NCBI GenBank assembly: GCA_030649835.1
Contig: JAUSES010000013.1
Location: forward strand, 9,317 to 73,316
Source of the DNA: a bacterium
GTDB lineage: Bacteria; Patescibacteriota; Minisyncoccia; Phycocordibacterales; UBA1550
Reading direction: 5' to 3'
DNA: 64,000 nt
This document shows, one piece after another, positions 173-55,913 of the stretch. Every line of letters starts with the position of its first letter. The first letter of the stretch is position 1. A model generated the notes under the pieces. That model did not search any database and was not told the origin of the DNA. It saw only the letters and a program-made list of their open reading frames with translations. The translations under genes and the position numbers were made by a program.

Positions 173-202
173 TTGACTCCAAAGACTTTGTAGTGGTATA
201 CT
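173..202 (+). promoter_or_regulatory. Sigma70-like promoter TTGACT-N18-TATACT (extended TGGTATACT), embedded in a perfect 13-bp-stem palindrome (162..193). The -10 ends 9 nt before the ATG at 212, so the transcript is probably leaderless.
   Basis: TTGACT at 173-178 and TATACT at 197-202. The palindrome ctacaaagtcttt/aaagactttgtag overlaps the -35 and spacer, which is operator-like. Confidence 0.4.
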
Positions 203-211
203 AGAATAATT

Positions 212-625
212 ATGGAACCAAATCAAACACCAAAGAAAATTATTATAGTTGACGATGATAAATTTTTGTTAGACATGTACACCTTCAAATTTAAGGAGAG
301 AGGGTTTGATGTTACGCAGGCATATGGCAGTGTTGACGCACTCAATAAATTAAAAGGTGGCATTGTCGCCGATATCCTTCTTATTGATATCGTCATTCCT
401 ACCATGGATGGCTTTGATCTGCTTACTATTATCAAAAACGAAAATCTCGCACCTGATGCAAAGGTTGTCATTCTTTCAAATCTGGGACAACCAGCGGATA
501 TTGAAAAAGGTAGAAACCTCGGCGCAAATGGCTACGTTATTAAAGCATCATCTACTCCGTCTGAAGTAGTGGAGAAAGTGCTCATTGTTTTGGGTGGGGA
601 GGATTCGTTTGCAAAAGTAGATTAA
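212..625 (+). CDS. Stand-alone response-regulator receiver domain protein (CheY-like; a PilH/PilG-like role is possible).
   Basis: The protein shows the receiver-domain pattern: an acidic pocket (IIIVDDD), a later Asp (LLIDIVIPTMDG), and a conserved Lys region (GYVIKA). At 137 aa it has no output domain. Confidence 0.8.
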   Translation: MEPNQTPKKIIIVDDDKFLLDMYTFKFKERGFDVTQAYGSVDALNKLKGGIVADILLIDIVIPTMDGFDLLTIIKNENLAPDAKVVILSNLGQPADIEKGRNLGANGYVIKASSTPSEVVEKVLIVLGGEDSFAKVD

Positions 626-650
626 CGTTTACGATTTATTAAATAAAAAA

Positions 651-1727
651 ATGCCAACCCGTAACTATAAAGAGGAGATTGAGGTACTCATCATGCGTGC
701 GATTGGTGATGGGGCATCTGATATCCACATATCAGCGGGGCATTATCCTACATTTCGTATTTCTGGCAATCTCGTGCCACTTATGAATTTGTCCGTCCTC
801 ACACCTGAAGACACTATGGGAATCCTCACAGAGATTATCACACCAGAGTTTAAGGATCGCTTTTTACAGAACAAAGAAATAGATTTTTCTTATGAATTTT
901 ATGACAAAGGGCGTTTTCGCGGAAGCGCATTTTATCAAAAGAACTCAGTTGGGATTGCGCTGCGAGCAATCCCAACACAGGTGCAGACTATCAGCGAGCT
1001 TAACCTCCCCCCCATCCTTGAGGTGTTTACGAAGAAAAAGCAAGGGTTCTTTCTTGTTGTGGGTCCAGTTGGGCAGGGCAAGTCCACTACACTTGCCTCA
1101 ATGGTAGAGCTTATCAACCGCGAACGCGCAGAACATATCGTGACTATTGAAGATCCGATTGAATATTTATTTAACTCTCAGAAGGCGATTATTGATCAGC
1201 GCGAAGTGGGTATCGATACTAAGGATTTTAAATCAGGACTACAGGCAGTGTTTCGCCAGGATGTAGATGTTATTATGATTGGGGAAATGCGTGACCCAGA
1301 AACAATCTCCACAGCAGTCACCGCCGCAGAGACAGGACACCTTGTTTTATCCACACTCCACACCAACAACGCCTCTCAGACCATAGATCGCATTATCGAC
1401 TCTTTTCCCGGCGACCAGCAATCACAAATACGCGTTCAGCTTGCAGGAAGCTTACTCGGGATTTTTTCACAGCGACTCGTACCGCGTATTTCCGGCGGAC
1501 TCATTCCTGCATACGAGCTTCTTATAAACAACACCGCGGTCTCAAGCCTCATTCGCGAGGGTCGTACGCATGAGGTAGATGTAATCATTGAGACAGGTAT
1601 GAAGGACGGAATGATTGACATGAATCGCAGTCTCTCAACCCTGGTATTAAACGGAGAGGTCACTCCAGAAAATGCATTGCTCTATTCGTTTAATCCAAAG
1701 GGTTTGGAGAGAATGTTACATTCGTAA
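651..1727 (+). CDS. pilT: Type IV pilus retraction ATPase PilT (twitching motility).
   Basis: Walker A GPVGQGKSTTLASM, TIEDPIEY, IMIGEMRD and AAETGHLVLSTLHT match PilT/PilU-family hallmarks. The true start may be the internal Met (MRAIGDGASDIHI). Confidence 0.85.
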   Translation: MPTRNYKEEIEVLIMRAIGDGASDIHISAGHYPTFRISGNLVPLMNLSVLTPEDTMGILTEIITPEFKDRFLQNKEIDFSYEFYDKGRFRGSAFYQKNSVGIALRAIPTQVQTISELNLPPILEVFTKKKQGFFLVVGPVGQGKSTTLASMVELINRERAEHIVTIEDPIEYLFNSQKAIIDQREVGIDTKDFKSGLQAVFRQDVDVIMIGEMRDPETISTAVTAAETGHLVLSTLHTNNASQTIDRIIDSFPGDQQSQIRVQLAGSLLGIFSQRLVPRISGGLIPAYELLINNTAVSSLIREGRTHEVDVIIETGMKDGMIDMNRSLSTLVLNGEVTPENALLYSFNPKGLERMLHS

Positions 1728-1955
1728 AACAAAGTCTAATGTTAAATTTCAAATTTTTAAATTACCTTGAATTACGAAACTACCATATTTCGTCTTTTGA
1801 ATCAGCAGATTCACGTCTTGGACGAAGACCTTCAGAAGCAATCCAGGACTTATAGATTGCTTCGTCAGAGTACTTCCTCGCAAAGACAGGAAACCAGGGT
1901 TTTGTAATTCAAAGTTTACAAAATTGGAAATTAAACATTTAAAATTATAACTACC

Positions 1956-3152
1956 ATGTTATTCACATACAAAGCTGTTACAAAAGAAGGACGCGAAACA
2001 TCCGGCGAAATTGACGCACAAGGTCAAGACTCGGCGATAAACGCGCTTCAGAGAAGTGGTCTCGTGGTGGTTTCTGTGCGACCAGCTGACCAAAAGAAAC
2101 TATTTGAGTTGGACATCAACATTTTCAACAGAGTTTCCCTAAAAGAAATTTCAATTATTTCTCGCCAGATAGCAACGCTCCTTGATGCACACGTTCCTGC
2201 ACTCAAAACCTTTCGGCTCATTGGATCAGAATCTGAAAACCCGCTTGCCGCAAAAAAGTTTACAGAGATTTCAGATGACATCCAAAATGGTGTTCCAATT
2301 TCAGGTGCGTTATTCAAACACCCGAGCCTCTTTTCAGATTTTTATGTAAATATGGTCATTGGAGGAGAGGAGTCAGGAAAACTTGCCGAGACTTTTGGAG
2401 CACTTGCAGACTATCTCGAGCGTTCGTCCGAGCTTGTATCAAAAGCGCGTGGCGCGCTTATCTATCCAGCGTTTGTTATCGGTACGTTCGTCATAGTGAT
2501 GGTGCTTATGCTTACCCTTGTTATCCCAAAGCTTTCCGAGATCATTACGCAGAGTGGTCAGGAGGTACCATTTTATACAACCATTGTCCTGAAGACGAGT
2601 TTTATTTTAATAAACTATGGTATTTTTGTTGCAATGCTTCTTGTTCTCGCATTGTTCCTTGTGTGGCGGTATACGCGAGGAACAAGCTTTATTGCTCATG
2701 CAAAGCTCAGCTTTCCGGTGATTGGCAATCTGTATAAGATGCTCTATTTGTCCCGCATTACCGACAATATGCACGTGATGCTCTCTAATGGTATTTCTAT
2801 GGTGCGATCCATCGAGATTTCTGCAAAGGTAGTAGACAATGAAATCTATCAGGATATTCTTGCGAAGTCCGTCATTGCGGTAAAAGGTGGTGCGCCTCTC
2901 TCAGCCACGCTCATGGGGCACTCTGAAATTCCTAATGTGCTGATACAAATGATAAAAGTGGGGGAGGAGACCGGGGAGCTCGGTAATATTCTTCAAAAAC
3001 TTTCCCTATTTTACAAGCGAGAGGTTGAAAATGCTATAGCTACCGTGATCTCGATGATTGAACCGGTGATGATTGTAGCACTCGGTATTGGCGTAGGAGG
3101 AGTGCTCGCATCAGTGCTTATTCCGATCTATCAGATCGCGGGGAATGTCTAG
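1956..3152 (+). CDS. pilC: Type IV pilus assembly platform protein PilC (GspF family).
   Basis: About 400 aa with three TM segments and duplicated GspF-like domains (…EESGKL… and …EETGEL… motifs). Confidence 0.8.
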   Translation: MLFTYKAVTKEGRETSGEIDAQGQDSAINALQRSGLVVVSVRPADQKKLFELDINIFNRVSLKEISIISRQIATLLDAHVPALKTFRLIGSESENPLAAKKFTEISDDIQNGVPISGALFKHPSLFSDFYVNMVIGGEESGKLAETFGALADYLERSSELVSKARGALIYPAFVIGTFVIVMVLMLTLVIPKLSEIITQSGQEVPFYTTIVLKTSFILINYGIFVAMLLVLALFLVWRYTRGTSFIAHAKLSFPVIGNLYKMLYLSRITDNMHVMLSNGISMVRSIEISAKVVDNEIYQDILAKSVIAVKGGAPLSATLMGHSEIPNVLIQMIKVGEETGELGNILQKLSLFYKREVENAIATVISMIEPVMIVALGIGVGGVLASVLIPIYQIAGNV

Positions 3153-3158
3153 CGCGAG

Positions 3159-3200
3159 ATAGATAGGATATAGAATTTAGGATTTAGAATATAGAAGGGG
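3159..3200. repeat. AT-rich tandem heptamer array (GRATWTA units). It is the left arm of a nested palindrome.
   Basis: atagata|ggatata|gaattta|ggattta|gaatata|gaagggg. The downstream array at 3241..3284 is its approximate reverse complement. Confidence 0.6.
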
Positions 3201-3232
3201 AAGGATTGCCTTCGGCAATCCTTCCCCTGTTT
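3201..3232 (+). terminator. GC-rich hairpin (14-bp stem, TTCG loop) after pilC. Probable terminator or attenuator.
   Basis: ggggaaggattgcc ttcg ggcaatccttcccc is a perfect stem. It is followed by tgtttg, a weak U tract. Confidence 0.5.
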
Positions 3233-3240
3233 GAATCACG

Positions 3241-3284
3241 TATTATCCTAAATTCTAAATCCTATATTCTACCTTCTTCCCCGT
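3241..3284. repeat. AT-rich tandem heptamer array (ANNTYCT units, …cctatattctacc). It is the right arm of the nested palindrome.
   Basis: tatcct|aaattct|aaatcct|atattct|accttct. Same family as the arrays at 5745, 7048, 45900 and 55876. Confidence 0.6.
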
Positions 3285-3446
3285 TATCCACACCCCCCTC
3301 ACCAAACTATTGCATTAAAAATACTATAGGTGGTATAATATCCAAGTGTGGGAGAGAGGGCGGCGATATGGCCATGCCGCTCTCTCTCACAAAAATGAAT
3401 TTAAAGAATTTACATTATCAAGTTAATTACTCGTTTTAAAAATAAT

Positions 3447-3941
3447 ATGAAAAATAAAGGTTTTACACTTATCGAACTCTTGGTGGTTATCGCAATCATC
3501 GGTATCCTCGCATCTGTTGTTCTCGCATCGCTCAACAGCGCTCGTGCAAAGGGTGCGGATGCAGCGGTTAAGGCAAGTTTGGCCAATGCTCGCGCTCAAG
3601 CAGAGCTTCTTTATGACACACCAGGCTGTTATACAACTGCTGGTGGGACATGTCTTGCTGCTGGATTCCCCAAGGCAACATGTACCTACGCTACAGCAAA
3701 CACACTCTTCAATGATACAAAAATATCACAACAGATTGCTGCTGCTATAGCTGCAACAAACGGGCTCTCATCCTGTATGGAAGCAGCAAATGATACAGCC
3801 TGGGCAACCGCGGTACAGTTAAAAGTTAACCCTCTAACCGCATGGTGCGTGGACAGTACCGGCGCCTCAAAGCAAGTAACAATGGCAACGAATGATCAAG
3901 CAGGTATTGACCTAATGATTGGAGCATCAGTTTGTATTTAA
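3447..3941 (+). CDS. Type IV major pilin (PilA-like prepilin).
   Basis: MKNKG|FTLIELLVVIAIIGILA is a class III signal: short leader, F+1, E+5, hydrophobic helix. Cys pairs lie in the C-terminal region. An upstream TGGTATAAT -10 at about 3330 is followed by a roughly 100-nt leader with a hairpin. Confidence 0.8.
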   Translation: MKNKGFTLIELLVVIAIIGILASVVLASLNSARAKGADAAVKASLANARAQAELLYDTPGCYTTAGGTCLAAGFPKATCTYATANTLFNDTKISQQIAAAIAATNGLSSCMEAANDTAWATAVQLKVNPLTAWCVDSTGASKQVTMATNDQAGIDLMIGASVCI

Positions 3942-4007
3942 TTCGTAGAAAGTGAATAGAAAGGGGAAACGGTATCAGGTACCCTTTCCAAACAAAACAC
4001 TCGCCAT

Positions 4008-4068
4008 CCAGCGGGTGTTTTGTTTTGCTCGCCCCGCGCTACTCCTACCGAGGTTAAACCTCGGTGGA
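4008..4068 (+). repeat. REP-like element, copy 1. It contains the palindromic hairpin CGAGGTTAAACCTCG.
   Basis: A 61-nt segment (ccagcgggtgttttg…ctcctaccgaggttaaacctcggtgga) is near-identical to 4818..4880. It lies directly upstream of the RAYT gene. Confidence 0.7.
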
Positions 4069-4095
4069 GACGCGTGTTTGTGCTACTATGAATGT

Positions 4096-4767
4096 ATGTC
4101 ACGAAATATAGATTTCTCTATCAACGAGTATTACCATCTTTATAACCGCGGTGTAGATAAACGCACAGTGTTTATGGATGCTGAGGATTACAAGAGATTC
4201 ACCGCGCTACTTTATCTTGCCAATAATACAAACAGCGTACACATGAATAATTTAAACCACCGAGGTTTAACCTCGCTGGACGTACTTTCGATCGAGAAGG
4301 GAGACACTCTTGTTGATATTGGGGCATATTGTTTGATGCCAAATCATTTCCATGTTCTCGTGCGAGAAAAAATTGAGAGTGGGATCAGTATATTTATGCA
4401 AAAAGTAATGACAGGATACACGATGTACTTTAATAAAAAATACAAAAGAACGGGAGCGCTTTTTGGTGGCACCTTTAAAGCACAGCATGTTGCTCGTGAC
4501 ACGTATCTAAAATATCTTTTTGCGTATATTCATTTGAACCCAATCAAACTTGTAGATTCGAACTGGAAGGAAAATGGTATCTCTGATAAAAAGAAGGCTG
4601 AGAGGTATCTGAATTCTTATCTGTATTCGAGTTACCTCGACTTTAAAGGAACAGACCGAGAAGAAAAGTCGATTTTGAACAAAGATGCATTTCCACAATA
4701 TTTTAGTACCAATGTTGAATTTCGCAGTTTTGTATCTTGGTGGCTAAATTTTAAGGACGAAAAATAG
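4096..4767 (+). CDS. REP-associated tyrosine transposase (RAYT) / IS200-like Y1 (HuH) transposase.
   Basis: The HuH motif CLMPNHFHVLV and the downstream YIHLNPIK/…Y region are typical of the IS200/IS605 TnpA / RAYT family. The in-frame ATG at 4096 gives about 223 aa. The listed ORF from 3952 would run through the REP element. Confidence 0.65.
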   Translation: MSRNIDFSINEYYHLYNRGVDKRTVFMDAEDYKRFTALLYLANNTNSVHMNNLNHRGLTSLDVLSIEKGDTLVDIGAYCLMPNHFHVLVREKIESGISIFMQKVMTGYTMYFNKKYKRTGALFGGTFKAQHVARDTYLKYLFAYIHLNPIKLVDSNWKENGISDKKKAERYLNSYLYSSYLDFKGTDREEKSILNKDAFPQYFSTNVEFRSFVSWWLNFKDEK

Positions 4768-4782
4768 GCGAACGCTTACCTT

Positions 4783-4803
4783 CAGTGAGGTTAAACCTCA
4801 CTG
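4783..4803. repeat. Perfect 21-bp palindrome cagtgaggttaaacctcactg (REP-like hairpin variant).
   Basis: Read directly. It shares the GAGGTTAAACCTC core with the flanking REP copies. Confidence 0.7.
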
Positions 4804-4817
4804 AAAACCTCGGTGAA

Positions 4818-4880
4818 CCAGCGGGTGTTTTGGTTTACTCGTACCGCTCGCCACTCCTACCGAGGTTAAACCTCGGTGGA
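4818..4880 (+). repeat. REP-like element, copy 2 (direct repeat of 4008..4068).
   Basis: ccagcgggtgttttggtttactcgtaccgctcgccactcctaccgaggttaaacctcggtgga. Confidence 0.7.
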
Positions 4881-4935
4881 AACATTCTGGAGGTTTTTTA
4901 AGAGATTTTTGTGATTGGCATGGTAGAATATTCAT

Positions 4936-5742
4936 ATGGATTTCTTAATGCTCGTCAATGTTTTTATTTTTGGGACTATTGTGGGGAGCTTTTTGAATGT
5001 GGTTGTCTATCGTTACAATAGTGGCAGATCCCCACTCACCGGCCGGTCGCAGTGTTTCTCGTGCGGAAAAACACTATCATGGTATGAGCTTGTCCCCGTT
5101 TTTAGCTTCCTTGTGCAGGGTGGGAGATGCCGAAAATGTAAAACAAAACTATCGTGGCAGTATCCGTTAGTTGAAGTACTTTCAGGAATTATTTTTGTTT
5201 CAGTTTTTATGCAGAGTAAGTCCATGGTGGAGACAGCACTTCTCCTTTCTGTTTTTTCAACACTCCTTGTCATTGCAGTGTATGATTTACGGCACCAAAT
5301 CATTCCCGACGGGCTCGCTATACTTTTTGCAGTGCTCGGACTCGCTCAGTTTTTCATTTTAGTTGATATTTCTCGGGCATTTCAGTTTCCTCACGTGTGG
5401 ACGCTCATTGCGGGGCCGATGCTTTTTCTACCATTTTGGTTACTATGGTTTGTGTCTCAGGGGAGATGGATTGGGCTCGGGGACGGTAAGCTTGCGTGGG
5501 GAATAGGCTGGTTTCTTGGAGCAGCACTCGGTGGCTCAGCGGTAATACTCGCGTTTTGGATAGGGGCGGCGTATGCACTTTGCATCATGACAGTGCAGAA
5601 ATTTTTTACCAAAACAAAGGATAAATTATCTCTAAAAAGCGAAATCCCCTTCGGCCCATTCCTCATTTTAGCCACAATTATTGTATACTTTACAGGAGTG
5701 AATTTTTTTGACGGCTCGGTCAACCTTCTCACCTTTTTATGA
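4936..5742 (+). CDS. pilD: Prepilin peptidase PilD (A24 family).
   Basis: N-terminal tetra-Cys zinc motif (CFSCGKTL … CRKCKTKL) and a polytopic membrane domain with conserved Asp-containing segments (…VYDLRHQIIPDGL… and …GLGDGKLAWG…). TGGTAGAAT lies 6 nt upstream of the ATG. Confidence 0.8.
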   Translation: MDFLMLVNVFIFGTIVGSFLNVVVYRYNSGRSPLTGRSQCFSCGKTLSWYELVPVFSFLVQGGRCRKCKTKLSWQYPLVEVLSGIIFVSVFMQSKSMVETALLLSVFSTLLVIAVYDLRHQIIPDGLAILFAVLGLAQFFILVDISRAFQFPHVWTLIAGPMLFLPFWLLWFVSQGRWIGLGDGKLAWGIGWFLGAALGGSAVILAFWIGAAYALCIMTVQKFFTKTKDKLSLKSEIPFGPFLILATIIVYFTGVNFFDGSVNLLTFL

Positions 5743-6323
5743 AAATTCTCCATTCTCCATTCTCCATTCCCCATTCTGCCCTTCAGGGTTTTACCCTTGT
5801 CGAACTTCTTGTATCAATCGGTATTTTTACGATCATGACTGGTGTTGTTCTTGCAAATTATCGCACCTACAATACGAATGCTAATTTCGCAAACTCTTCG
5901 GAAGATATTGTTTTAGCCCTTCGTCAAGCACAGGTATATGGGGTGAGTGTAAAAGGTGAGAGCTCCTCGTTTAACATACCTTATGGTGTTTCGTTTGACA
6001 TATCTTCTACTGGTAAACCAAACCAAATAATTCTGTTTGCAGATAAAGATAGTGATGGAATATATGCACCAGCGAGTGACTCTATTGTGCAGACAATCAC
6101 ATGGCAAAGCCCCATTGGTATTACGGCACTTGAGTGCGGAAGCGTGCCATGCACCGGCGGTGTACTTAATGTAACGTTCAAGCGTCCCAATCCCGATGCG
6201 CGCATTACTCAAGGGGCGACAGTAGACGACTCTGTGCAGATTGCTAAAATCACCGTTGGAAATGGTGGCACAAAGACGAGCACCATAACGATTTCCAAGG
6301 CTGGGCAAATCTCTATTCAATGA
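5739..6323 (+). CDS. Pseudopilin / minor type IV pilin with a long leader.
   Basis: MKILHSPFSIPHSALQG|FTLVELLVSIGIFTIM has the class III signal with F+1 and E+5. The 17-aa leader is encoded by (ATTCTCC)3-ATTCCCC-ATTCTGC heptamer repeats. The ATGA overlaps the pilD stop. Confidence 0.7.
   Translation: MKILHSPFSIPHSALQGFTLVELLVSIGIFTIMTGVVLANYRTYNTNANFANSSEDIVLALRQAQVYGVSVKGESSSFNIPYGVSFDISSTGKPNQIILFADKDSDGIYAPASDSIVQTITWQSPIGITALECGSVPCTGGVLNVTFKRPNPDARITQGATVDDSVQIAKITVGNGGTKTSTITISKAGQISIQ
5745..5779 (+). repeat. Tandem heptanucleotide repeat (ATTCTCC)x3 + ATTCCCC + ATTCTGC inside the first codons of the pseudopilin gene.
   Basis: Read directly. Period 7 is not a multiple of 3. Confidence 0.8.
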
Positions 6324-6324
6324 T

Positions 6325-6936
6325 ATGAAAAACCCGCAATACTCAACATTTGATATATCTCGCCCCACATCAAGGGGATTCACTCGCCAAAATTTTTCAA
6401 AGAAAAACTTAGGGGGGTTTACTCTTGTTGAAATGATCGTTGCCCTCGGACTCTTTACTATAGTGCTATTTATTGCAACGAGCGCATTTCTTTCAATTGT
6501 AAATGCAGACAGAAAGGCACGAGCTGTTCGTGTTGCGGCCGATAACCTAAACATTGCACTTGAAGATATGTCGCGTAGAATTAAAACAGGCACAAGTTAT
6601 TATTGTGGACCAGGAGGGGATGCGCTACTTTCTGTGAAGGATTGTGCGAGTGGGGGGAACACACTCTTCTTTACTGGTCAGGATGGATTTAGGACTATGT
6701 ATACACTGGACAGCAGTGGTGCAATTTTACGTTCCATTGCTCCAGACGCACCAATATCGGCAACTTCCCCTGAAATAAAAATCACCAGTCTTAATTTTAT
6801 TGTGAATGGTAGCGACCCAACAGATAAAATACAGCCAGTCGTCGCAATCTCCATAAGTGGGTCACTGAGCGCAGGTACGGCAAATACTACATTCAAAATG
6901 CAAACCACCGTAACACAGCGACAATATGATAATTGA
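6325..6936 (+). CDS. Pseudopilin / minor type IV pilin with a long leader.
   Basis: …KKNLGG|FTLVEMIVALGLFTIVLF. The 31-aa N-terminal extension (containing SRGFTRQNF) has no internal alternative start. Confidence 0.65.
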   Translation: MKNPQYSTFDISRPTSRGFTRQNFSKKNLGGFTLVEMIVALGLFTIVLFIATSAFLSIVNADRKARAVRVAADNLNIALEDMSRRIKTGTSYYCGPGGDALLSVKDCASGGNTLFFTGQDGFRTMYTLDSSGAILRSIAPDAPISATSPEIKITSLNFIVNGSDPTDKIQPVVAISISGSLSAGTANTTFKMQTTVTQRQYDN

Positions 6937-6941
6937 TAGGT

Positions 6942-6977
6942 GGAATAGAGAATGGAGAATAGGGGATGGTGAATGGA
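6942..6977. repeat. Tandem heptamers GAATRGN x5 (complement orientation of the CCATTCY family).
   Basis: gaataga|gaatgga|gaatagg|ggatggt|gaatgg. Confidence 0.6.
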
Positions 6978-7018
6978 CGAAAGAACAGAAAATATGAAAT
7001 ACAAAATATTAAAAATAG

Positions 7019-7082
7019 GAATGGAGAATGGAGAATGGAGAATAAAAATTCCCCATTCCCCATTCCCCATTCCCCATTCTAC
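7019..7082. repeat. Inverted heptamer arrays (GAATGGA)x3-GAATAAA | (ATTCCCC)x4-ATTCTAC. They form a long imperfect palindrome centred near 7046, inside the pseudopilin leader-coding region.
   Basis: Read directly. The two halves are approximate reverse complements. Confidence 0.75.
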
Positions 7083-7619
7083 CCAGCGGGGCTTCACTCT
7101 CGTGGAAACACTCATCGCGATTTCAATCCTCCTTGTCGCTGTGGTAACACCAATCTCACTTATTGGAGATTCACTTCACAAACTTTACTATGCACGAGAT
7201 GAAATGGTCGCTATTAATCTCGCGCAGGAGGGGATAGAGGTGGTGCGCTACGTGAGAGACTCAAACTTGCTCGCGTCTGTACCATGGACAAAGGGACTTC
7301 ATAATTCCAATGAAAAGAATGGATATATTGTTGATGCTGCAAGCATTAGCGGTGCAACTAATTCTTATTTTAAAAAGTGCAATGGCAACAATACAGAATG
7401 TCTAGCCCCACAGCCAATATATTTCGACTCCGCAACAGGGTTTTATAGTCAAGGTCTTTCTGTGGGTGGAACTGTTTCCTTAACGCAATTCAAGCGCCTT
7501 GTCACAACAGAGGATGTTTCCGGAAATGTAAATGAGATAAAGGTTACTTCTACAGTAGAATGGATGACAGGTGGGCAGGCAGGGTCGATTGTGGTTACTG
7601 AAAATCTTTTTAAACTGAA

Positions 7620-7623
<4 letters not shown>
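7021..7623 (+). CDS. Pseudopilin / minor type IV pilin with a long leader.
   Basis: MENGEWRIKIPHSPFPIPHSTQRG|FTLVETLIAISILLV. The in-frame ATG at 7021 lies within the heptamer array. The listed ORF start at 6973 is further upstream. Confidence 0.6.
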
Positions 7624-10162
<2,539 letters not shown>

Positions 10163-11025: not shown

Positions 11026-11319
11026 ATGACGATTGAAATTAAAGATGTTGAACACCTTGCGGGCCTTGCGCGTATTGCTGTTTCTGAGGAGGAAAAAAAG
11101 ATACTTCAGCATGATTTGGAGGAGATTTTGGCATATGTGTCACAGATTAAAGAAGTCGAAGGTCAAAAGTCAAAAGTCAAAAGTGGGGAGCTTCGCAATG
11201 TGATGCGCGAGGATAGTGAGCCGCACGAAGCGGGAATTTTTACTGAGGATATTTTGAAGCAAGCACCAGCACGTGAAGGGAACCGCATTTCAGTAAAAAA
11301 GATACTGGGAAACAGTTGA
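11026..11319 (+). CDS. gatC: Glu-tRNA(Gln)/Asp-tRNA(Asn) amidotransferase subunit C.
   Basis: The 97 aa protein MTIEIKDVEHLAGLARIAVSEEEKKILQHDLEEILAYVSQI matches GatC. A tRNA-Gln gene at 24713..24781 is consistent with use of the transamidation route. Confidence 0.8.
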   Translation: MTIEIKDVEHLAGLARIAVSEEEKKILQHDLEEILAYVSQIKEVEGQKSKVKSGELRNVMREDSEPHEAGIFTEDILKQAPAREGNRISVKKILGNS

Positions 11320-15458: not shown

Positions 15459-15553
15459 TGATAGTTGAAAGCCTGTAAAGTCCTTAAGGTCAAAAAGTGA
15501 ATGCATTTTTGCAATCACTTTTGACTTTACACTTTGGACTTTTGACTGTTTGT

Positions 15554-15629
15554 GCCGACCTAGCTCAACTGGTAGAGCAACGGTATCGTAAACCGTAGGT
15601 TCCGGGTTCAATTCCCGGGGTTGGCTCCA
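15554..15629 (+). tRNA. tRNA-Thr (anticodon CGT).
   Basis: Acceptor stem gccgacc/ggttggc. Anticodon stem acggt/accgt with loop aUCGUAa. T-loop TTCAATT. CCA is encoded. Confidence 0.85.
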
Positions 15630-45512: not shown

Positions 45513-45893
45513 ATGGATACTAACGATTTTAAAATAATTGATGAGGAATACGAAGCAGGGCGCCTTGCTTTGCGATCGTACGTGACAGGTTTTGTGCTGT
45601 CCATCATACTCACACTCATTCCGTATTTCATAGTGGTAAATAAAATGTTCGGAGTACAAAGTATGGTTGTGGCCATTGTCCTCTTTGGCGTGACCCAGCT
45701 TTTTGTTCAGGTTGTCTTTTTCCTCCACCTTCATAAAAAATTCAAACCTAAATGGAACATGGTTATTTTTACGTTCACAGTACTCATTGTTTCTATATTG
45801 GTCGTAGGTACACTTTGGATTATGTCCAACCTCAACTACAACACTATGCATAGAACCCCCGCGACGTTAAATGAAGGATATATTCCACAGTAG
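45513..45893 (+). CDS. cyoD: Cytochrome bo3 ubiquinol oxidase subunit IV.
   Basis: 126 aa with three TM helices. Positioned after cyoC. Confidence 0.65.
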   Translation: MDTNDFKIIDEEYEAGRLALRSYVTGFVLSIILTLIPYFIVVNKMFGVQSMVVAIVLFGVTQLFVQVVFFLHLHKKFKPKWNMVIFTFTVLIVSILVVGTLWIMSNLNYNTMHRTPATLNEGYIPQ

Positions 45894-45899
45894 AGGGGG

Positions 45900-45934
45900 T
45901 AGAATGTAGAATTTAGAATATTGAATATAGAATG
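45900..45934 (+). repeat. Tandem heptamer array TAGAATG-TAGAATT-TAGAATA-TTGAATA-TAGAATG running into the ATG at 45932.
   Basis: Read directly. The units resemble -10 boxes (TAGAAT). It is the complement orientation of the ATTCTAA arrays. Confidence 0.75.
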
Positions 45935-46237
45935 AAAAAAACTCTTTTTAAAAACGATAAATATAAAAAAACGCGTGGTGGATACTCGCGACTTTTGAAT
46001 ATCTCTTGTGAAAAATGCAGGGAACATATTTGCAATTATCAAAAAGACGGGCCAGGTAATTTACGTCGACTATATCGTGATCGCATCAGCAATCCGAAGA
46101 TCTCTGTTTCAGGAAAGAACCTCACTTGCTCGAGAGGTCATCTTCTAGGTGTAGGAATTATTTATGATAAAGAAAAACGACCAGCGTTTCGTTTATTTGT
46201 TGATTCGGTCACGAAAAAGATAATTAGATCTGTCTAA
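45932..46237 (+). CDS. Hypothetical small Cys-containing protein.
   Basis: CEKCREHIC…C..H pattern. No family recognised. Confidence 0.3.
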   Translation: MKKTLFKNDKYKKTRGGYSRLLNISCEKCREHICNYQKDGPGNLRRLYRDRISNPKISVSGKNLTCSRGHLLGVGIIYDKEKRPAFRLFVDSVTKKIIRSV

Positions 46238-55719: not shown

Positions 55720-55875
55720 TTATATTTCCCCTCCTAATAGCATTTTGCGTGCAAAATTACACTCTCATATTATAACAAAAGTTAGAAAATTGTCAATAAT
55801 TCTGGAGGAGTAAAACCTCCATCAGGGATATACAAACGGTAGGTTTCTGGAACATTTGTTGATACAATGTACCCG

Positions 55876-55913
55876 ATATTCCATATTCTAAATTCTAATT
55901 CCTATATTCTACC
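55876..55913 (+). repeat. Tandem heptamer array ATATTCC-ATATTCT-AAATTCT-AATTCCT-ATATTCTACC.
   Basis: Near-identical to the 3'-arm array at 3254..3278. It lies 4 nt upstream of the duplicated helicase start. Confidence 0.7.

What the first reader, a model, noticed from the sequence alone, without database searches (positions are those of the whole stretch)
5739..7090. Tandem 7-nt repeats inside the start and leader-coding region of pseudopilin genes: candidate slipped-strand phase variation, with unusually long His/Pro-rich prepilin leaders
Pseudopilin 1 begins ATG AAA followed by (ATTCTCC)3-ATTCCCC-ATTCTGC. This encodes MKILHSPFSIPHSALQG|FTLVE. Pseudopilin 3 starts inside an inverted double array, (GAATGGA)3 … (ATTCCCC)4, which encodes …IPHSPFPIPHSTQRG|FTLVE.
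The resulting leaders are long: 17, 31 and 24 aa for the three pseudopilins, against 5 aa for the major pilin. I found no alternative in-frame start between the repeats and the G|F cleavage site.
A 7-nt period is not a multiple of 3. Gain or loss of one unit would therefore switch the gene on or off. This is the mechanism used by simple-sequence contingency loci in other bacteria.
Basis: partly seen in the sequence, partly recalled or inferred. Interest (0 to 1): 0.7.

Follow-up and report, generated by a model that had tools for sequence, protein, structure and literature searches.

The report
Stable heptamer repeats encoding prepilin leaders
The 7-base repeats at the start of these pilus genes are real, but they look like stable, translated copies of a genome-wide family of heptamer arrays that form a removable leader peptide, not an on/off switch.

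Summary
(ATTCTCC)3-ATTCCCC-ATTCTGC lies at 5745-5779, right after the ATG of minor pilin 1. (GAATGGA)3.6 / AAAA / (ATTCCCC)4.6 lies at 7018-7082, in front of minor pilin 3. The leaders are 17, 31 and 24 aa, against 5 aa for the major pilin.

The phase-variation reading is not supported:
- The tracts have only 3-4 perfect units.
- All 16 array-bearing pilin leaders found in CPR bacteria are in frame.
- The arrays are identical in 5, 4 and 2 assemblies of three relatives.
- Against a species whose pilin 1 is 45% identical, the array is the best-conserved DNA of the pilD-pilin 1 region (91%).

Period-7 arrays of about 5 units are a genome-wide feature here, with 10 in 64 kb. They also sit in gatC, ligA and pilD linkers and beside a tRNA. 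They resemble cyanobacterial STRR sequences.

The variation that does occur is replacement of the whole leader cassette by recombination, cassette transfer between non-orthologous pilin genes, and one likely in-frame 3-unit indel. The inverted arrays fold into a hairpin over the pilin 3 start.

What the arrays do, if anything, remains unknown.

The parts
4936..5742 (+). pilD, the A24 prepilin peptidase. Its TGA stop overlaps the pilin 1 ATG (ATGA).
   Evidence: Pfam A24_N_bact 1.2e-30 and Peptidase_A24 1.4e-9. The ATGA overlap is conserved in L072, L074, L078, L079, L084 and L206.
5739..6323 (+). Minor pilin 1 (GspH/FimT-like). The 17-aa leader is 5739-5789, with cleavage after Gly (5787-5789).
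   Evidence: Pfam N_methyl. 93 homologues, mostly Cand. Yonathbacteria; source names include GspH domain and FimT family.
5745..5779 (+). Heptamer array (ATTCTCC)3-ATTCCCC-ATTCTGC, translated as ILHSPFSIPHSA.
   Evidence: RNA fold shows it unstructured (z +0.65). 91% identical to L072 over 5731-5775, the maximum for the locus.
6325..6936 (+). Minor pilin 2, with a 31-aa leader that contains a second cleavage-like motif (SRG-FT ... GG|FTLVE).
   Evidence: Orthologous to L072 pilin 2.
6942..6977 (+). Degenerate GAAT-type heptamer array in the pilin 2-pilin 3 spacer.
   Evidence: 76-94% complementary to the pilin 1 array depending on the arm (I1 76%, I6 85%, I13 94%).
6994..7017 (+). Conserved cassette spacer (ATGAAATACAAAATATTAAAAATA) that precedes the inverted arrays.
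   Evidence: The same spacer plus arrays lies in front of pilin 2 in L072 and L196.
7018..7043 (+). GGAATGG-AGAATGG-AGAATGG-AGAAT array, the 5' arm of the hairpin. It contains the in-frame ATG at 7021-7023.
   Evidence: 26 nt are 100% complementary to 5745-5770 (I2).
7042..7047 (+). ATA AAA at the hairpin loop. The ATA aligns with the ATG of pilin 1 and with the ATG of the L072 and L196 cassettes.
   Evidence: D1; alignment; (L196).
7048..7082 (+). (ATTCCCC)4-ATTCTAC array, the 3' arm of the hairpin, translated as IPHSPFPIPHST.
   Evidence: hairpin 7018-7073, -32 kcal/mol.
7021..7623 (+). Minor pilin 3. The leader is 24 aa from ATG 7021, or 17 aa if counted from ATA 7042. The Gly codon is 7090-7092.
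3159..3280 (+). Inverted pair of heptamer arrays (ATAGRAT x5 at 3159-3199; ATYCTAW x4 at 3243-3280). They flank a G+C hairpin (3196-3228) between pilC and the major pilin promoter.
   Evidence: I5, I7. RNA fold -58.8 kcal/mol, z -8.3.
11150..11192 (+). AAGTCAA heptamer array inside gatC, in a variable linker (KEVEGQKSKVKSGE).
15514..15552 (+). ACTTTKG heptamer array that ends 2 nt before a tRNA gene (15554-15626).
45892..45939 (+). GTAGAAT-type heptamer array that overlaps the ATG (45931) of a small ORF.
55869..55912 (+). ATATTCY heptamer array, intergenic, just upstream of a short helicase-like ORF fragment.

Best explanation
The repeats are copies of a lineage-wide class of short heptanucleotide tandem arrays, about 5 units or 35 nt each, resembling cyanobacterial STRR sequences. 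These arrays are scattered through this Candidatus Yonathbacteria (CPR/Patescibacteria) genome.

In the minor-pilin operon the arrays occupy the one part of the gene where almost any hydrophilic sequence is tolerated: the leader that PilD cuts off.

Shown: translation of pilin 1 very probably starts at the ATG that overlaps the pilD stop and runs through the array. The conserved ATTC core, read in three successive frames, gives I, H-S and F. That is why the leader looks His/Ser/Pro/Phe-rich with a 7-aa period.

Inferred: PilD then cleaves after Gly-1, so the array-encoded peptide never reaches the pilus.

Shown: the arrays are inherited stably and in frame. They do not behave as a slippage switch. 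The changes seen are whole-cassette replacement by homologous recombination in the conserved flanks (pilD 3' end and the FTLVE-coding N-terminus), copying of a cassette between paralogous pilin genes, and one likely in-frame 3-unit indel.

Inferred: where two arrays lie inverted (7018-7082 and 3159-3280), the mRNA folds into a long hairpin. At pilin 3 this hairpin covers the Shine-Dalgarno-like GGAG motifs and the start region. It most plausibly tunes translation or transcript stability, as has been proposed for STRR hairpins between cyanobacterial genes.
For: Genome-wide family:
- Period 7 gives 7-10 arrays in the window, against 0-3 for periods 4-12.
- Density is 15.6 per 100 kb in Yonathbacteria loci, 5.1 in other CPR loci and 0.3 in non-CPR loci.
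- Arrays also lie in the gatC linker, the ligA linker (L074, L078) and a pilD loop insertion (L084), and next to a tRNA.

Translated leader:
- The ATGA overlap with pilD is present in the window and all six related species fetched, and no later start exists in those with an array.
- In L079 only the pilin frame is open through the array.
- The gene-caller starts at MVELL in P0041 and P0065 are artefacts: a cluster member (P0109) carries the full MSSLNSKFKIPNSAHRG leader.

DNA-level rather than peptide-level periodicity:
- Orthologues carry different units at the same place: ATTCTCC, AYATTCN, CACTTTC, AATTCNA.
- The conserved residues I..HS.F.I..HS are exactly those encoded by ATTC.

Stability:
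- 16 of 16 array leaders are in frame.
- Eight leaders are exactly 17 aa (window pilin 3 counted from ATA 7042).
- Arrays are identical in L079-L083 (5 assemblies, retrieved without regard to the array), L074-L077 (4) and L072/L073 (2).
- Window-versus-L072 identity peaks at 0.91 over the array, against about 0.7 in pilD and about 0.5 in mature pilin 1.

Cassette exchange:
- L208 and L209 are identical over 502 nt of the gene body but carry unrelated leaders (19 aa from a CTTTNGA array; 28 aa from an ATTCAAC array). SNPs are confined to the 135 nt upstream and the first 171 nt downstream.
- The spacer plus inverted-array cassette is about 85% identical between window pilin 3 and L072 pilin 2, although gene order and orthology are conserved. 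It is also on a pilin 2-type gene in L196.
- P0015 and P0023 differ by exactly 7 aa, which equals 3 units.

Dispensability: L206 has 10-aa and other leaders with no arrays in its pilus cluster.

Hairpins.

STRR precedent: 7-bp repeats, hairpins between hupS and hupL, function unknown (PMC2670836).
Against: - Pure tolerance does not easily explain why the array is the best-conserved DNA of the locus between species with 45% identical pilins. It also does not explain why ATTCTCC arrays encode a pilin leader in a distant Gottesmanbacteria MAG (L034). Either points to a sequence-specific function, or to frequent horizontal exchange.
- Six of the ten arrays in the window lie within the 4-kb pilus cluster, and 9 of 24 pilin sites in Yonathbacteria loci carry one. 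This enrichment exceeds what permissiveness alone predicts.
- No reads were available, so low-frequency length variants were not tested.
- The independent Logan contig of this same sequence ends inside the ATTCCCC array. That is compatible with a graph branch from a length variant, or equally with ATTCCCC arrays from other organisms in the sample.
- No experiment shows the start codon, the cleavage or the hairpin.
Confidence: 0.6

Rival explanations
1. Slipped-strand phase variation. Gain or loss of one 7-nt unit during replication shifts the frame between the ATG and the G|F site and switches the minor pilin off or on.
For: - The unit length is not a multiple of 3, and the arrays lie between the only start codon and the cleavage site.
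- ATTCYCC arrays do vary in copy number between close relatives in other organisms: 3 versus 6 units in L087/L126, and about 2.7 versus 6 in L090/L149.
- A termite-gut lipoprotein signal peptide carries 7.5 units (L136).
- The Logan contig ends inside the array.
Against: - Only 3-4 perfect units, against 11-24 at hmw1A.
- The units are imperfect in most orthologues.
- 16 of 16 leaders are in the ON frame. If half of switchable genes were OFF at any time, the chance of this would be about 2e-5.
- Arrays are identical in 5, 4 and 2 assemblies.
- The array is the most conserved stretch of the locus, not the least.
- Similar arrays lie in gatC and ligA, which cannot be switched off.
Confidence: 0.07
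2. The arrays are selected cis-regulatory modules. One version is RNA-level: a G-poor, unstructured initiation region at pilin 1, and a Shine-Dalgarno/anti-Shine-Dalgarno-like (GGAGAAU)n:(AUUCCCC)n hairpin that gates the pilin 3 start or serves as an RNase III site. The other is DNA-level: sites for an unidentified protein that reads heptamer repeats and coordinates pilus genes.
For: - 91% nucleotide conservation of the array, with only synonymous changes, where the rest of the gene is saturated.
- Enrichment in the pilus cluster and at 9 of 24 pilin sites.
- In L072 and L196 the ATG sits in the hairpin loop directly after GGAG repeats.
- Hairpin energies are -32 to -36 kcal/mol, with fold z-scores of -3.2 (6930-7110) and -8.3 (3150-3290).
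- A perfect 26-nt complement links the pilin 1 array to 7018-7043.
- An array pair lies just upstream of the major pilin promoter.
Against: - L206 runs the same operon without any array.
- Units differ between sites within one genome and between species at one site, which fits a single sequence-specific reader poorly.
- Arrays also lie in protein linkers and beside a tRNA.
- No Rfam family matches.
- Promoter-like sites are not enriched.
- Recent cassette exchange can explain the high identity without any function.
Confidence: 0.25
3. The leader peptide itself, with its His/Ser/Pro/Phe 7-aa repeat, is the selected feature, for example for recognition by PilD or for retention in the cytoplasm.
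For: MKILHSPFSIPHSA is identical in two species whose pilins are 45% identical. Related peptides recur in pilins 1, 2 and 3 and in a Gottesmanbacteria pilin.
Against: - The conserved residues are those encoded by the ATTC core in three frames, and the 7-nt DNA period is kept, which peptide selection would not require.
- Other species have quite different peptides at the same place (LSTFDFRLST, SLNSKFKIPNS) or a 9-10 aa leader.
- The same peptide repeat appears in spurious intergenic ORFs of cyanobacteria and Prevotellaceae.
Confidence: 0.05
4. Translation starts downstream of the arrays at a non-canonical codon, so the arrays are untranslated 5' sequence and the long leaders are annotation artefacts.
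For: - In pilin 3 the codon aligned with the usual ATG is ATA.
- One L016 pilin has a second ATG after its array.
Against: - No ATG, GTG or TTG lies between the arrays and G|F in pilins 1 and 3.
- The ATGA overlap with pilD is conserved in the window and all six related species fetched.
- The pilin frame is open through every array, and in L079 it is the only open frame.
Confidence: 0.03

Closest known systems
Cyanobacterial STRR sequences (short tandemly repeated repetitive heptanucleotides)
   Same: - 7-bp units in short tandem arrays, dispersed in many copies.
- Often arranged as inverted arrays that fold into hairpins between genes of an operon; function unknown (PMC2670836).
- The metagenome scan found ATTCCCC arrays of 8 or more units next to HIP1 (GCGATCGC) sites, that is, in cyanobacteria.
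- From memory (Mazel et al. 1990), the STRR units are CCCCA(A/G)T and TT(G/T)GTCA. These are one or two bases away from the CCCCATT and GTTGTCA/AAAGTCA units seen here.
   Different: - The host is a CPR bacterium with a very small genome, not a heterocystous cyanobacterium.
- The arrays have a narrow size, about 5 units.
- Several are translated in frame as prepilin leaders or protein linkers.
- They move as leader cassettes between pilin genes.
Simple-sequence contingency loci: the H. influenzae hmw1A heptamer (ATCTTTC)n, and the Neisseria opa CTCTT repeats in the signal-peptide coding region
   Same: The repeat unit is not a multiple of 3 (7 nt at hmw1A). In opa the repeats sit inside the leader-coding region of a surface protein, so a one-unit change shifts the frame (opa from my own knowledge; hmw1A from PMC8262952).
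   Different: Those tracts are long and perfect (11-24 units at hmw1A). They differ between isolates and are found both ON and OFF. Here the tracts have 3-4 perfect units, are invariant across assemblies, are always ON, and are more conserved than their flanks.
Class III signal peptides of type IV pilins with long leaders (type IVb, Flp, some type IVa)
   Same: A hydrophilic leader ends in Gly and is followed by F-T-L-V-E with Glu5, next to an A24 peptidase. Leaders of 6-26 aa are known, and up to 18 aa in type IVa (PMC4471445).
   Different: Here the leader is written by a DNA repeat with a 7-nt period and is exchanged as a cassette. The 24- and 31-aa leaders are at or beyond the usual range. 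The major pilin in the same cluster keeps a 5-aa leader.
Rickettsia palindromic elements and other small repeats inserted in frame into genes (from my own knowledge)
   Same: Small non-autonomous repeats persist inside coding regions at positions where extra peptide is tolerated. Compare the pilD loop insertion in L084 and the arrays in the gatC and ligA linkers.
   Different: Those elements are 100-150 bp palindromes of fixed sequence. The arrays here are tandem heptamers whose unit sequence varies from site to site.

Membership tests
Simple-sequence contingency locus (slipped-strand phase variation) | Tandem repeat, with a unit that is not a multiple of 3, between the start codon and the functional part of the ORF (or in the promoter). 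| tested here: met
   7-nt units at 5745-5779 and 7048-7082 lie between the ATG and G|F.
Simple-sequence contingency locus (slipped-strand phase variation) | A long, homogeneous tract that makes slippage frequent. | tested here: not met
   3 and 4 perfect units, and imperfect units in most orthologues. hmw1A has 11-24 units.
Simple-sequence contingency locus (slipped-strand phase variation) | Repeat number differs between strains or within populations. | tested here: not met
   Arrays are identical in L079-L083 (5 assemblies), L074-L077 (4) and L072/L073 (2). This covers consensus assemblies of relatives only; reads of this organism were not available.
Simple-sequence contingency locus (slipped-strand phase variation) | Both ON and OFF frames are found among genomes. 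| tested here: not met
   16 of 16 array-bearing pilin leaders have an in-frame ATG and an open frame.
STRR-like heptanucleotide arrays | Tandem arrays of 7-bp units dispersed through the genome. | tested here: met
   10 arrays in 64 kb. Period 7 alone is enriched, and the enrichment is lineage-wide.
STRR-like heptanucleotide arrays | Inverted arrays that form hairpins in intergenic regions of operons. | tested here: met
   7018-7073 (-32 kcal/mol) and 3160-3275 (z -8.3). Compare PMC2670836.
STRR-like heptanucleotide arrays | Unit consensus CCCCA(A/G)T, TT(G/T)GTCA or CAACAGT, and occurrence in heterocystous cyanobacteria. | tested here: inconclusive
   The units here (CCCCATT, GGAGAAT, GTTGTCA, AAAGTCA) are 1-2 bases from the consensus, which I recall from memory. 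The host is CPR, not a cyanobacterium. The resemblance shows what the arrays work like; it does not show shared descent.
Type IV prepilin (class III signal peptide) processed by an A24 peptidase | Leader ending in Gly, then a hydrophobic segment with Glu5 (N_methyl motif). | tested here: met
   PF07963 matches at residues 16-38, 28-51 and 37-57 of the three minor pilins.
Type IV prepilin (class III signal peptide) processed by an A24 peptidase | A dedicated prepilin peptidase and assembly genes in the same locus. | tested here: met
   pilD, pilC, a PilT-like ATPase and the major pilin are present. Synteny is conserved in relatives.
Type IV prepilin (class III signal peptide) processed by an A24 peptidase | Cleavage of the leader after Gly-1. 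| not testable with these tools
   This needs proteomics or an in vitro PilD assay.

The most novel reading that the evidence does not exclude
The heptamer arrays are not passive. In this reading, CPR bacteria carry exchangeable 'leader cassettes' made of a spacer, a GGAG-rich array, the start codon and a pyrimidine-rich array that encodes a cleavable leader. An unidentified factor reads the arrays at the DNA or RNA level, or the arrays act through the hairpin. Recombination or natural transformation swaps the cassettes between strains and between paralogous pilin genes, and this resets minor-pilin expression. A weaker version is that rare one-unit slippage in the 4-unit perfect tracts still gives low-frequency switching.
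Probability: 0.2. Interest if true: 0.75.

Novelty: new variant of a known kind. Interest (0 to 1): 0.45.

Why it matters
If the phase-variation reading were right, it would be the first contingency locus in the uncultivated CPR bacteria, in the pili thought to mediate their attachment and DNA uptake. The evidence points the other way, and that warns against calling switches from repeat geometry alone.

What remains is still useful. Very small CPR genomes carry a family of heptamer arrays like the long-unexplained cyanobacterial STRR sequences. At the minor-pilin genes these arrays are translated, conserved at the DNA level, and exchanged as cassettes. This gives a compact, testable setting (one operon, a reporter fusion, a recoding experiment) for asking what heptamer arrays do.

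The result also corrects gene starts in public annotations, for example the P0041 and P0065 calls that begin at MVELL.

Tried and rejected
It returned only relatives of 37% identity or less, plus proteobacteria. I used these as CPR and non-CPR controls and fetched close relatives through exact-protein look-ups instead.
- A protein search with an artificial (ILHSPFS)n peptide found only 15 short hypothetical ORFs, from cyanobacteria, Prevotellaceae and unnamed metagenomic contigs. It said little about real coding contexts.
- Rfam at gathering and at E<=1 gave no family. The only hits were far-sub-threshold miRNA-precursor matches caused by the hairpin.
- The sigma-70 promoter scan showed no enrichment (11 sites against 10.3 expected). 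I therefore dropped the idea that TAGAAT and TTGACT units act as stacked -10 and -35 boxes, as untestable here.
- I considered a shufflon-like inversion between the perfect 26-nt inverted repeats at 5745-5770 and 7018-7043. I rejected it because no pilin-coding sequence lies on the opposite strand.
- I considered a link between the arrays and the neighbouring IS200/RAYT-like gene. Its flanking repeats are ordinary REP-type palindromes (GAGGTTAAACCTC), unrelated to the heptamers.
- Literature searches for heptanucleotide repeats in CPR or Parcubacteria found nothing. The paper on STRR sequences in RNase P RNA (PMC146911) is not held.
- Looking up this organism's own pilin 2 gave only one other contig, identical to the window and probably from the same sample. 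Population heterogeneity of this genome therefore could not be tested.

Full report
**1. What is in the sequence**

The window comes from a Candidatus Yonathbacteria (Parcubacteria/CPR) genome. The exact pilin 1 protein is on record from a metagenome-assembled genome, and its homologues are mostly named Yonathbacteria.

Positions 200-8050 hold a type IV pilus cluster:
- a response-regulator receiver;
- a PilT-like ATPase;
- PilC;
- the major pilin (3447-3941, leader MKNKG);
- an inserted IS200/RAYT-like gene;
- the prepilin peptidase PilD (4936-5742);
- three minor pilins (5739-6323, 6325-6936, 7021-7623);
- a PilX-like protein.

They are far beyond chance: 11 matches to ATTCYCCATTCYCC against 0.15 expected. 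The leaders are 17, 31 and 24 aa. No alternative start lies between the arrays and the G|F site.

**2. The repeats are one instance of a genome-wide feature**

A lag-autocorrelation scan finds 7-10 period-7 arrays in the 64 kb, depending on threshold. Every other period from 4 to 12 gives 0-3. Each array has about 5 units.

Besides the pilin sites, arrays occur at these places:
- as an inverted pair around a G+C hairpin between pilC and the major pilin promoter (3159-3280);
- inside the variable linker of gatC (11150-11192);
- 2 nt before a tRNA gene (15514-15552);
- over the ATG of a small ORF (45892-45939);
- in an intergenic region (55869-55912).

Across fetched loci the density is 15.6 per 100 kb in Yonathbacteria, 5.1 in other CPR bacteria and 0.3 in non-CPR bacteria.

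In relatives, arrays also sit in the ligA linker without changing its length (L074, L078). In L084 they form a 24-aa insertion in a PilD loop.

**3. The arrays are translated, and the periodicity is in the DNA**

In the window and all six related species fetched, the pilin 1 ATG overlaps the pilD stop (ATGA). In the five with a leader array the pilin frame stays open through the array to G|FT(L/M)VE (L206 has no array). In L079 the other two frames contain stops.

Two database proteins that start at MVELL are gene-caller artefacts. A cluster member carries the full leader.

The unit differs by species at the same position: ATTCTCC, AYATTCN, CACTTTC, AATTCNA, and one decayed array. The residues conserved among leaders (I..HS.F.I..HS) are those encoded by the ATTC core in three frames. 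The His/Pro-rich look of the leader is therefore a by-product of a DNA repeat.

**4. Test of phase variation**

- *Tract length.* There are 3 and 4 perfect units. The established heptamer switch at hmw1A has 11-24.
- *Frame.* I found 16 pilin leaders built from period-7 arrays: window x2, L006, L016 x3, L034 (Gottesmanbacteria), L044 x2, L072 x2, L074 x2, L078, L079 and L196. All have an in-frame ATG 5' of the array. Eight are exactly 17 aa (window pilin 3 counted from ATA 7042).
- *Copy number.* P0041 is called from a Met downstream of its array, so its look-up could not select for the array. All five assemblies retrieved have the same array. Four assemblies of the GWA1_44_13 species agree at its pilin 3 (CAGTTGT)3 array.
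- *Conservation.* Between the window and L072 (pilin 1 45% identical), nucleotide identity peaks at 0.91 over the ATG plus array. It is about 0.7 in pilD and about 0.5 in the mature pilin. A hypermutable tract should be the least conserved segment, not the most.
- *Location.* Similar arrays lie in the housekeeping genes gatC and ligA.

Slippage switching is therefore unlikely, though rare events cannot be excluded without reads. The only other contig of this organism is identical to the window and ends inside the ATTCCCC array. This is uninformative, because such arrays are common in metagenomes.

**5. The variation that does occur**

- *Cassette replacement.* L208 and L209 are the same species: 502 nt of gene body and downstream sequence are identical. 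Their leaders are unrelated (19 aa from a CTTTNGA array; 28 aa from an ATTCAAC array). SNPs are confined to the 135 nt upstream (11 SNPs) and the first 171 nt downstream (15 SNPs). This is the footprint of a recombination tract that replaced the leader.
- *Transfer between non-orthologous genes.* Gene order and orthology of pilins 1-4 are conserved between the window and L072. Even so, the cassette 'ATACAAAATATTA..(GAATGGN)n-AT[G/A]-AAA-(ATTCCCC)n' is about 85% identical between window pilin 3 and L072 pilin 2. It occurs again on a pilin 2-type gene in L196. Orthologues of pilin 3 elsewhere start at an ATG that overlaps the pilin 2 stop, so the window copy looks like a roughly 140-nt insertion.
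- *Relation between the two window leaders.* The pilin 3 leader is an 80% identical, in-register copy of the pilin 1 leader, with ATA in place of ATG.
- *Turnover on the tree.* Leader types are scattered over the pilin 1 tree. P0015 and P0023 differ by exactly 7 aa, which is 3 units.
- *Dispensability.* L206 has no arrays in its pilus cluster.

**6. Structure**

The inverted arrays at 7018-7073 fold into a hairpin of about -32 kcal/mol, with an A·C mismatch in each unit. In L072 the stem is perfect and the ATG lies in the loop. The 3159-3280 pair folds with z = -8.3. The pilin 1 array is unstructured. No Rfam family matches.

**7. Wider distribution**

These come from organisms with 28-66% G+C:
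- cyanobacteria, recognised by HIP1 sites nearby, with 8 or more units;
- Bacteroidetes, with arrays just upstream of TAnnTTTG promoters;
- a termite-gut lipoprotein signal peptide with 7.5 units;
- a PilX-like leader.

Copy number does differ between close relatives in some of those organisms.

The closest described phenomenon is the cyanobacterial STRR family: 7-bp repeats that form hairpins between genes, with unknown function and a proposed role in transcript stability or translational coupling. I found no description of such arrays in CPR bacteria.

**8. Verdict**

The long, translated leaders are confirmed, though 17 aa is within the known range. The phase-variation mechanism is not supported.

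The best reading (confidence 0.6) is that STRR-like heptamer arrays are lodged in, and exchanged with, the cleavable leader of minor pilins, with hairpins where the arrays are inverted. The main rival (0.25) is that the arrays are selected regulatory modules. It draws on the strong DNA conservation and the enrichment at pilin genes, and it is testable by recoding experiments.

Noticed in passing
window 3952-4767, with repeats at 4032-4071, 4257-4284, 4787-4808 and 4844-4883: An IS200-like Y1 transposase (RAYT-type) gene is inserted between the major pilin and pilD. It is flanked by REP-like palindromes (CCGAGGTTAAACCTCGG). The insertion is absent at this place in L072, L074, L078, L079 and L206.
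   Followed up: partly
window 3349-3392 (5' UTR of the major pilin, after the TTGCAT..TGGTATAAT promoter at about 3311-3340): A conserved hairpin (GAGAGAGGGCGGCG..ATGGCCATGCCGCTCTCTCTC) lies upstream of the major pilin gene in all six Yonathbacteria loci. Two of its pairs show compensatory changes. No Rfam match.
   Followed up: partly
window 7042-7044: The codon that aligns with the leader ATG of pilin 1, and with the ATG of the L072 and L196 cassettes, is ATA in pilin 3. Expression must rely on the ATG at 7021 inside the hairpin stem, on a weak ATA start, or be impaired. An assembly error is also possible.
   Followed up: partly
window 5745-5770 and 7018-7043: A perfect 26-nt inverted repeat brackets the bodies of pilins 1 and 2, 1247 nt apart. 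It could pair over a long range in the operon mRNA or mediate rare inversion. No pilin-coding sequence lies on the opposite strand.
   Followed up: partly
window 6325-6417: The pilin 2 leader contains a first cleavage-like motif (..PTSRG-FT) followed by 13 aa and the real GG|FTLVE. Homologues show the same GFT duplication (P0003, P0038, P0058, P0071). This suggests insertions or duplications at the conserved GGN-TTY-AC site.
   Followed up: no
L034 2054-2508 (Candidatus Gottesmanbacteria): Inverted GAGAATG and ATTCTCC arrays flank a small gene that, by eye (no profile search run), resembles the four-helix-bundle proteins of 23S rRNA intervening sequences. The downstream array encodes the leader of the next pilin (MSYKRFLHSPFSILHSSRG|FTLME).
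   Followed up: no
L084 1219-1309: Two heptamer arrays (AAGTTGA.. and CGACATT..) form an in-frame insertion of about 24 aa in a loop of PilD. The other five species lack it.
   Followed up: partly
L136 (termite-gut metagenome) about 89-145: A lipoprotein signal peptide, MKKLK(ILHSPFS)x3..LSITAC, is encoded by 7.5 ATTCTCC units. This is a better candidate for true repeat-mediated switching than the CPR pilins.
   Followed up: no
L208 versus L209: Two groundwater populations have identical pilin 1 bodies but unrelated leader cassettes, with SNPs clustered only around the leader. This indicates recent recombinational replacement.
   Followed up: yes
L205 (Logan contig of SRR13727527) = window 3447-7077: This separate assembly of the same sequence stops inside the (ATTCCCC)4 array. 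The cause could be a graph branch from a length variant or array k-mers from other organisms.
   Followed up: partly
L092, L111, L118, L143, L183, L189 (rumen metagenomes): ATTCTCC/ATTCTCA arrays sit directly upstream of a Bacteroidetes-type TAnnTTTG promoter of an rfbA-like gene, conserved across several samples.
   Followed up: no
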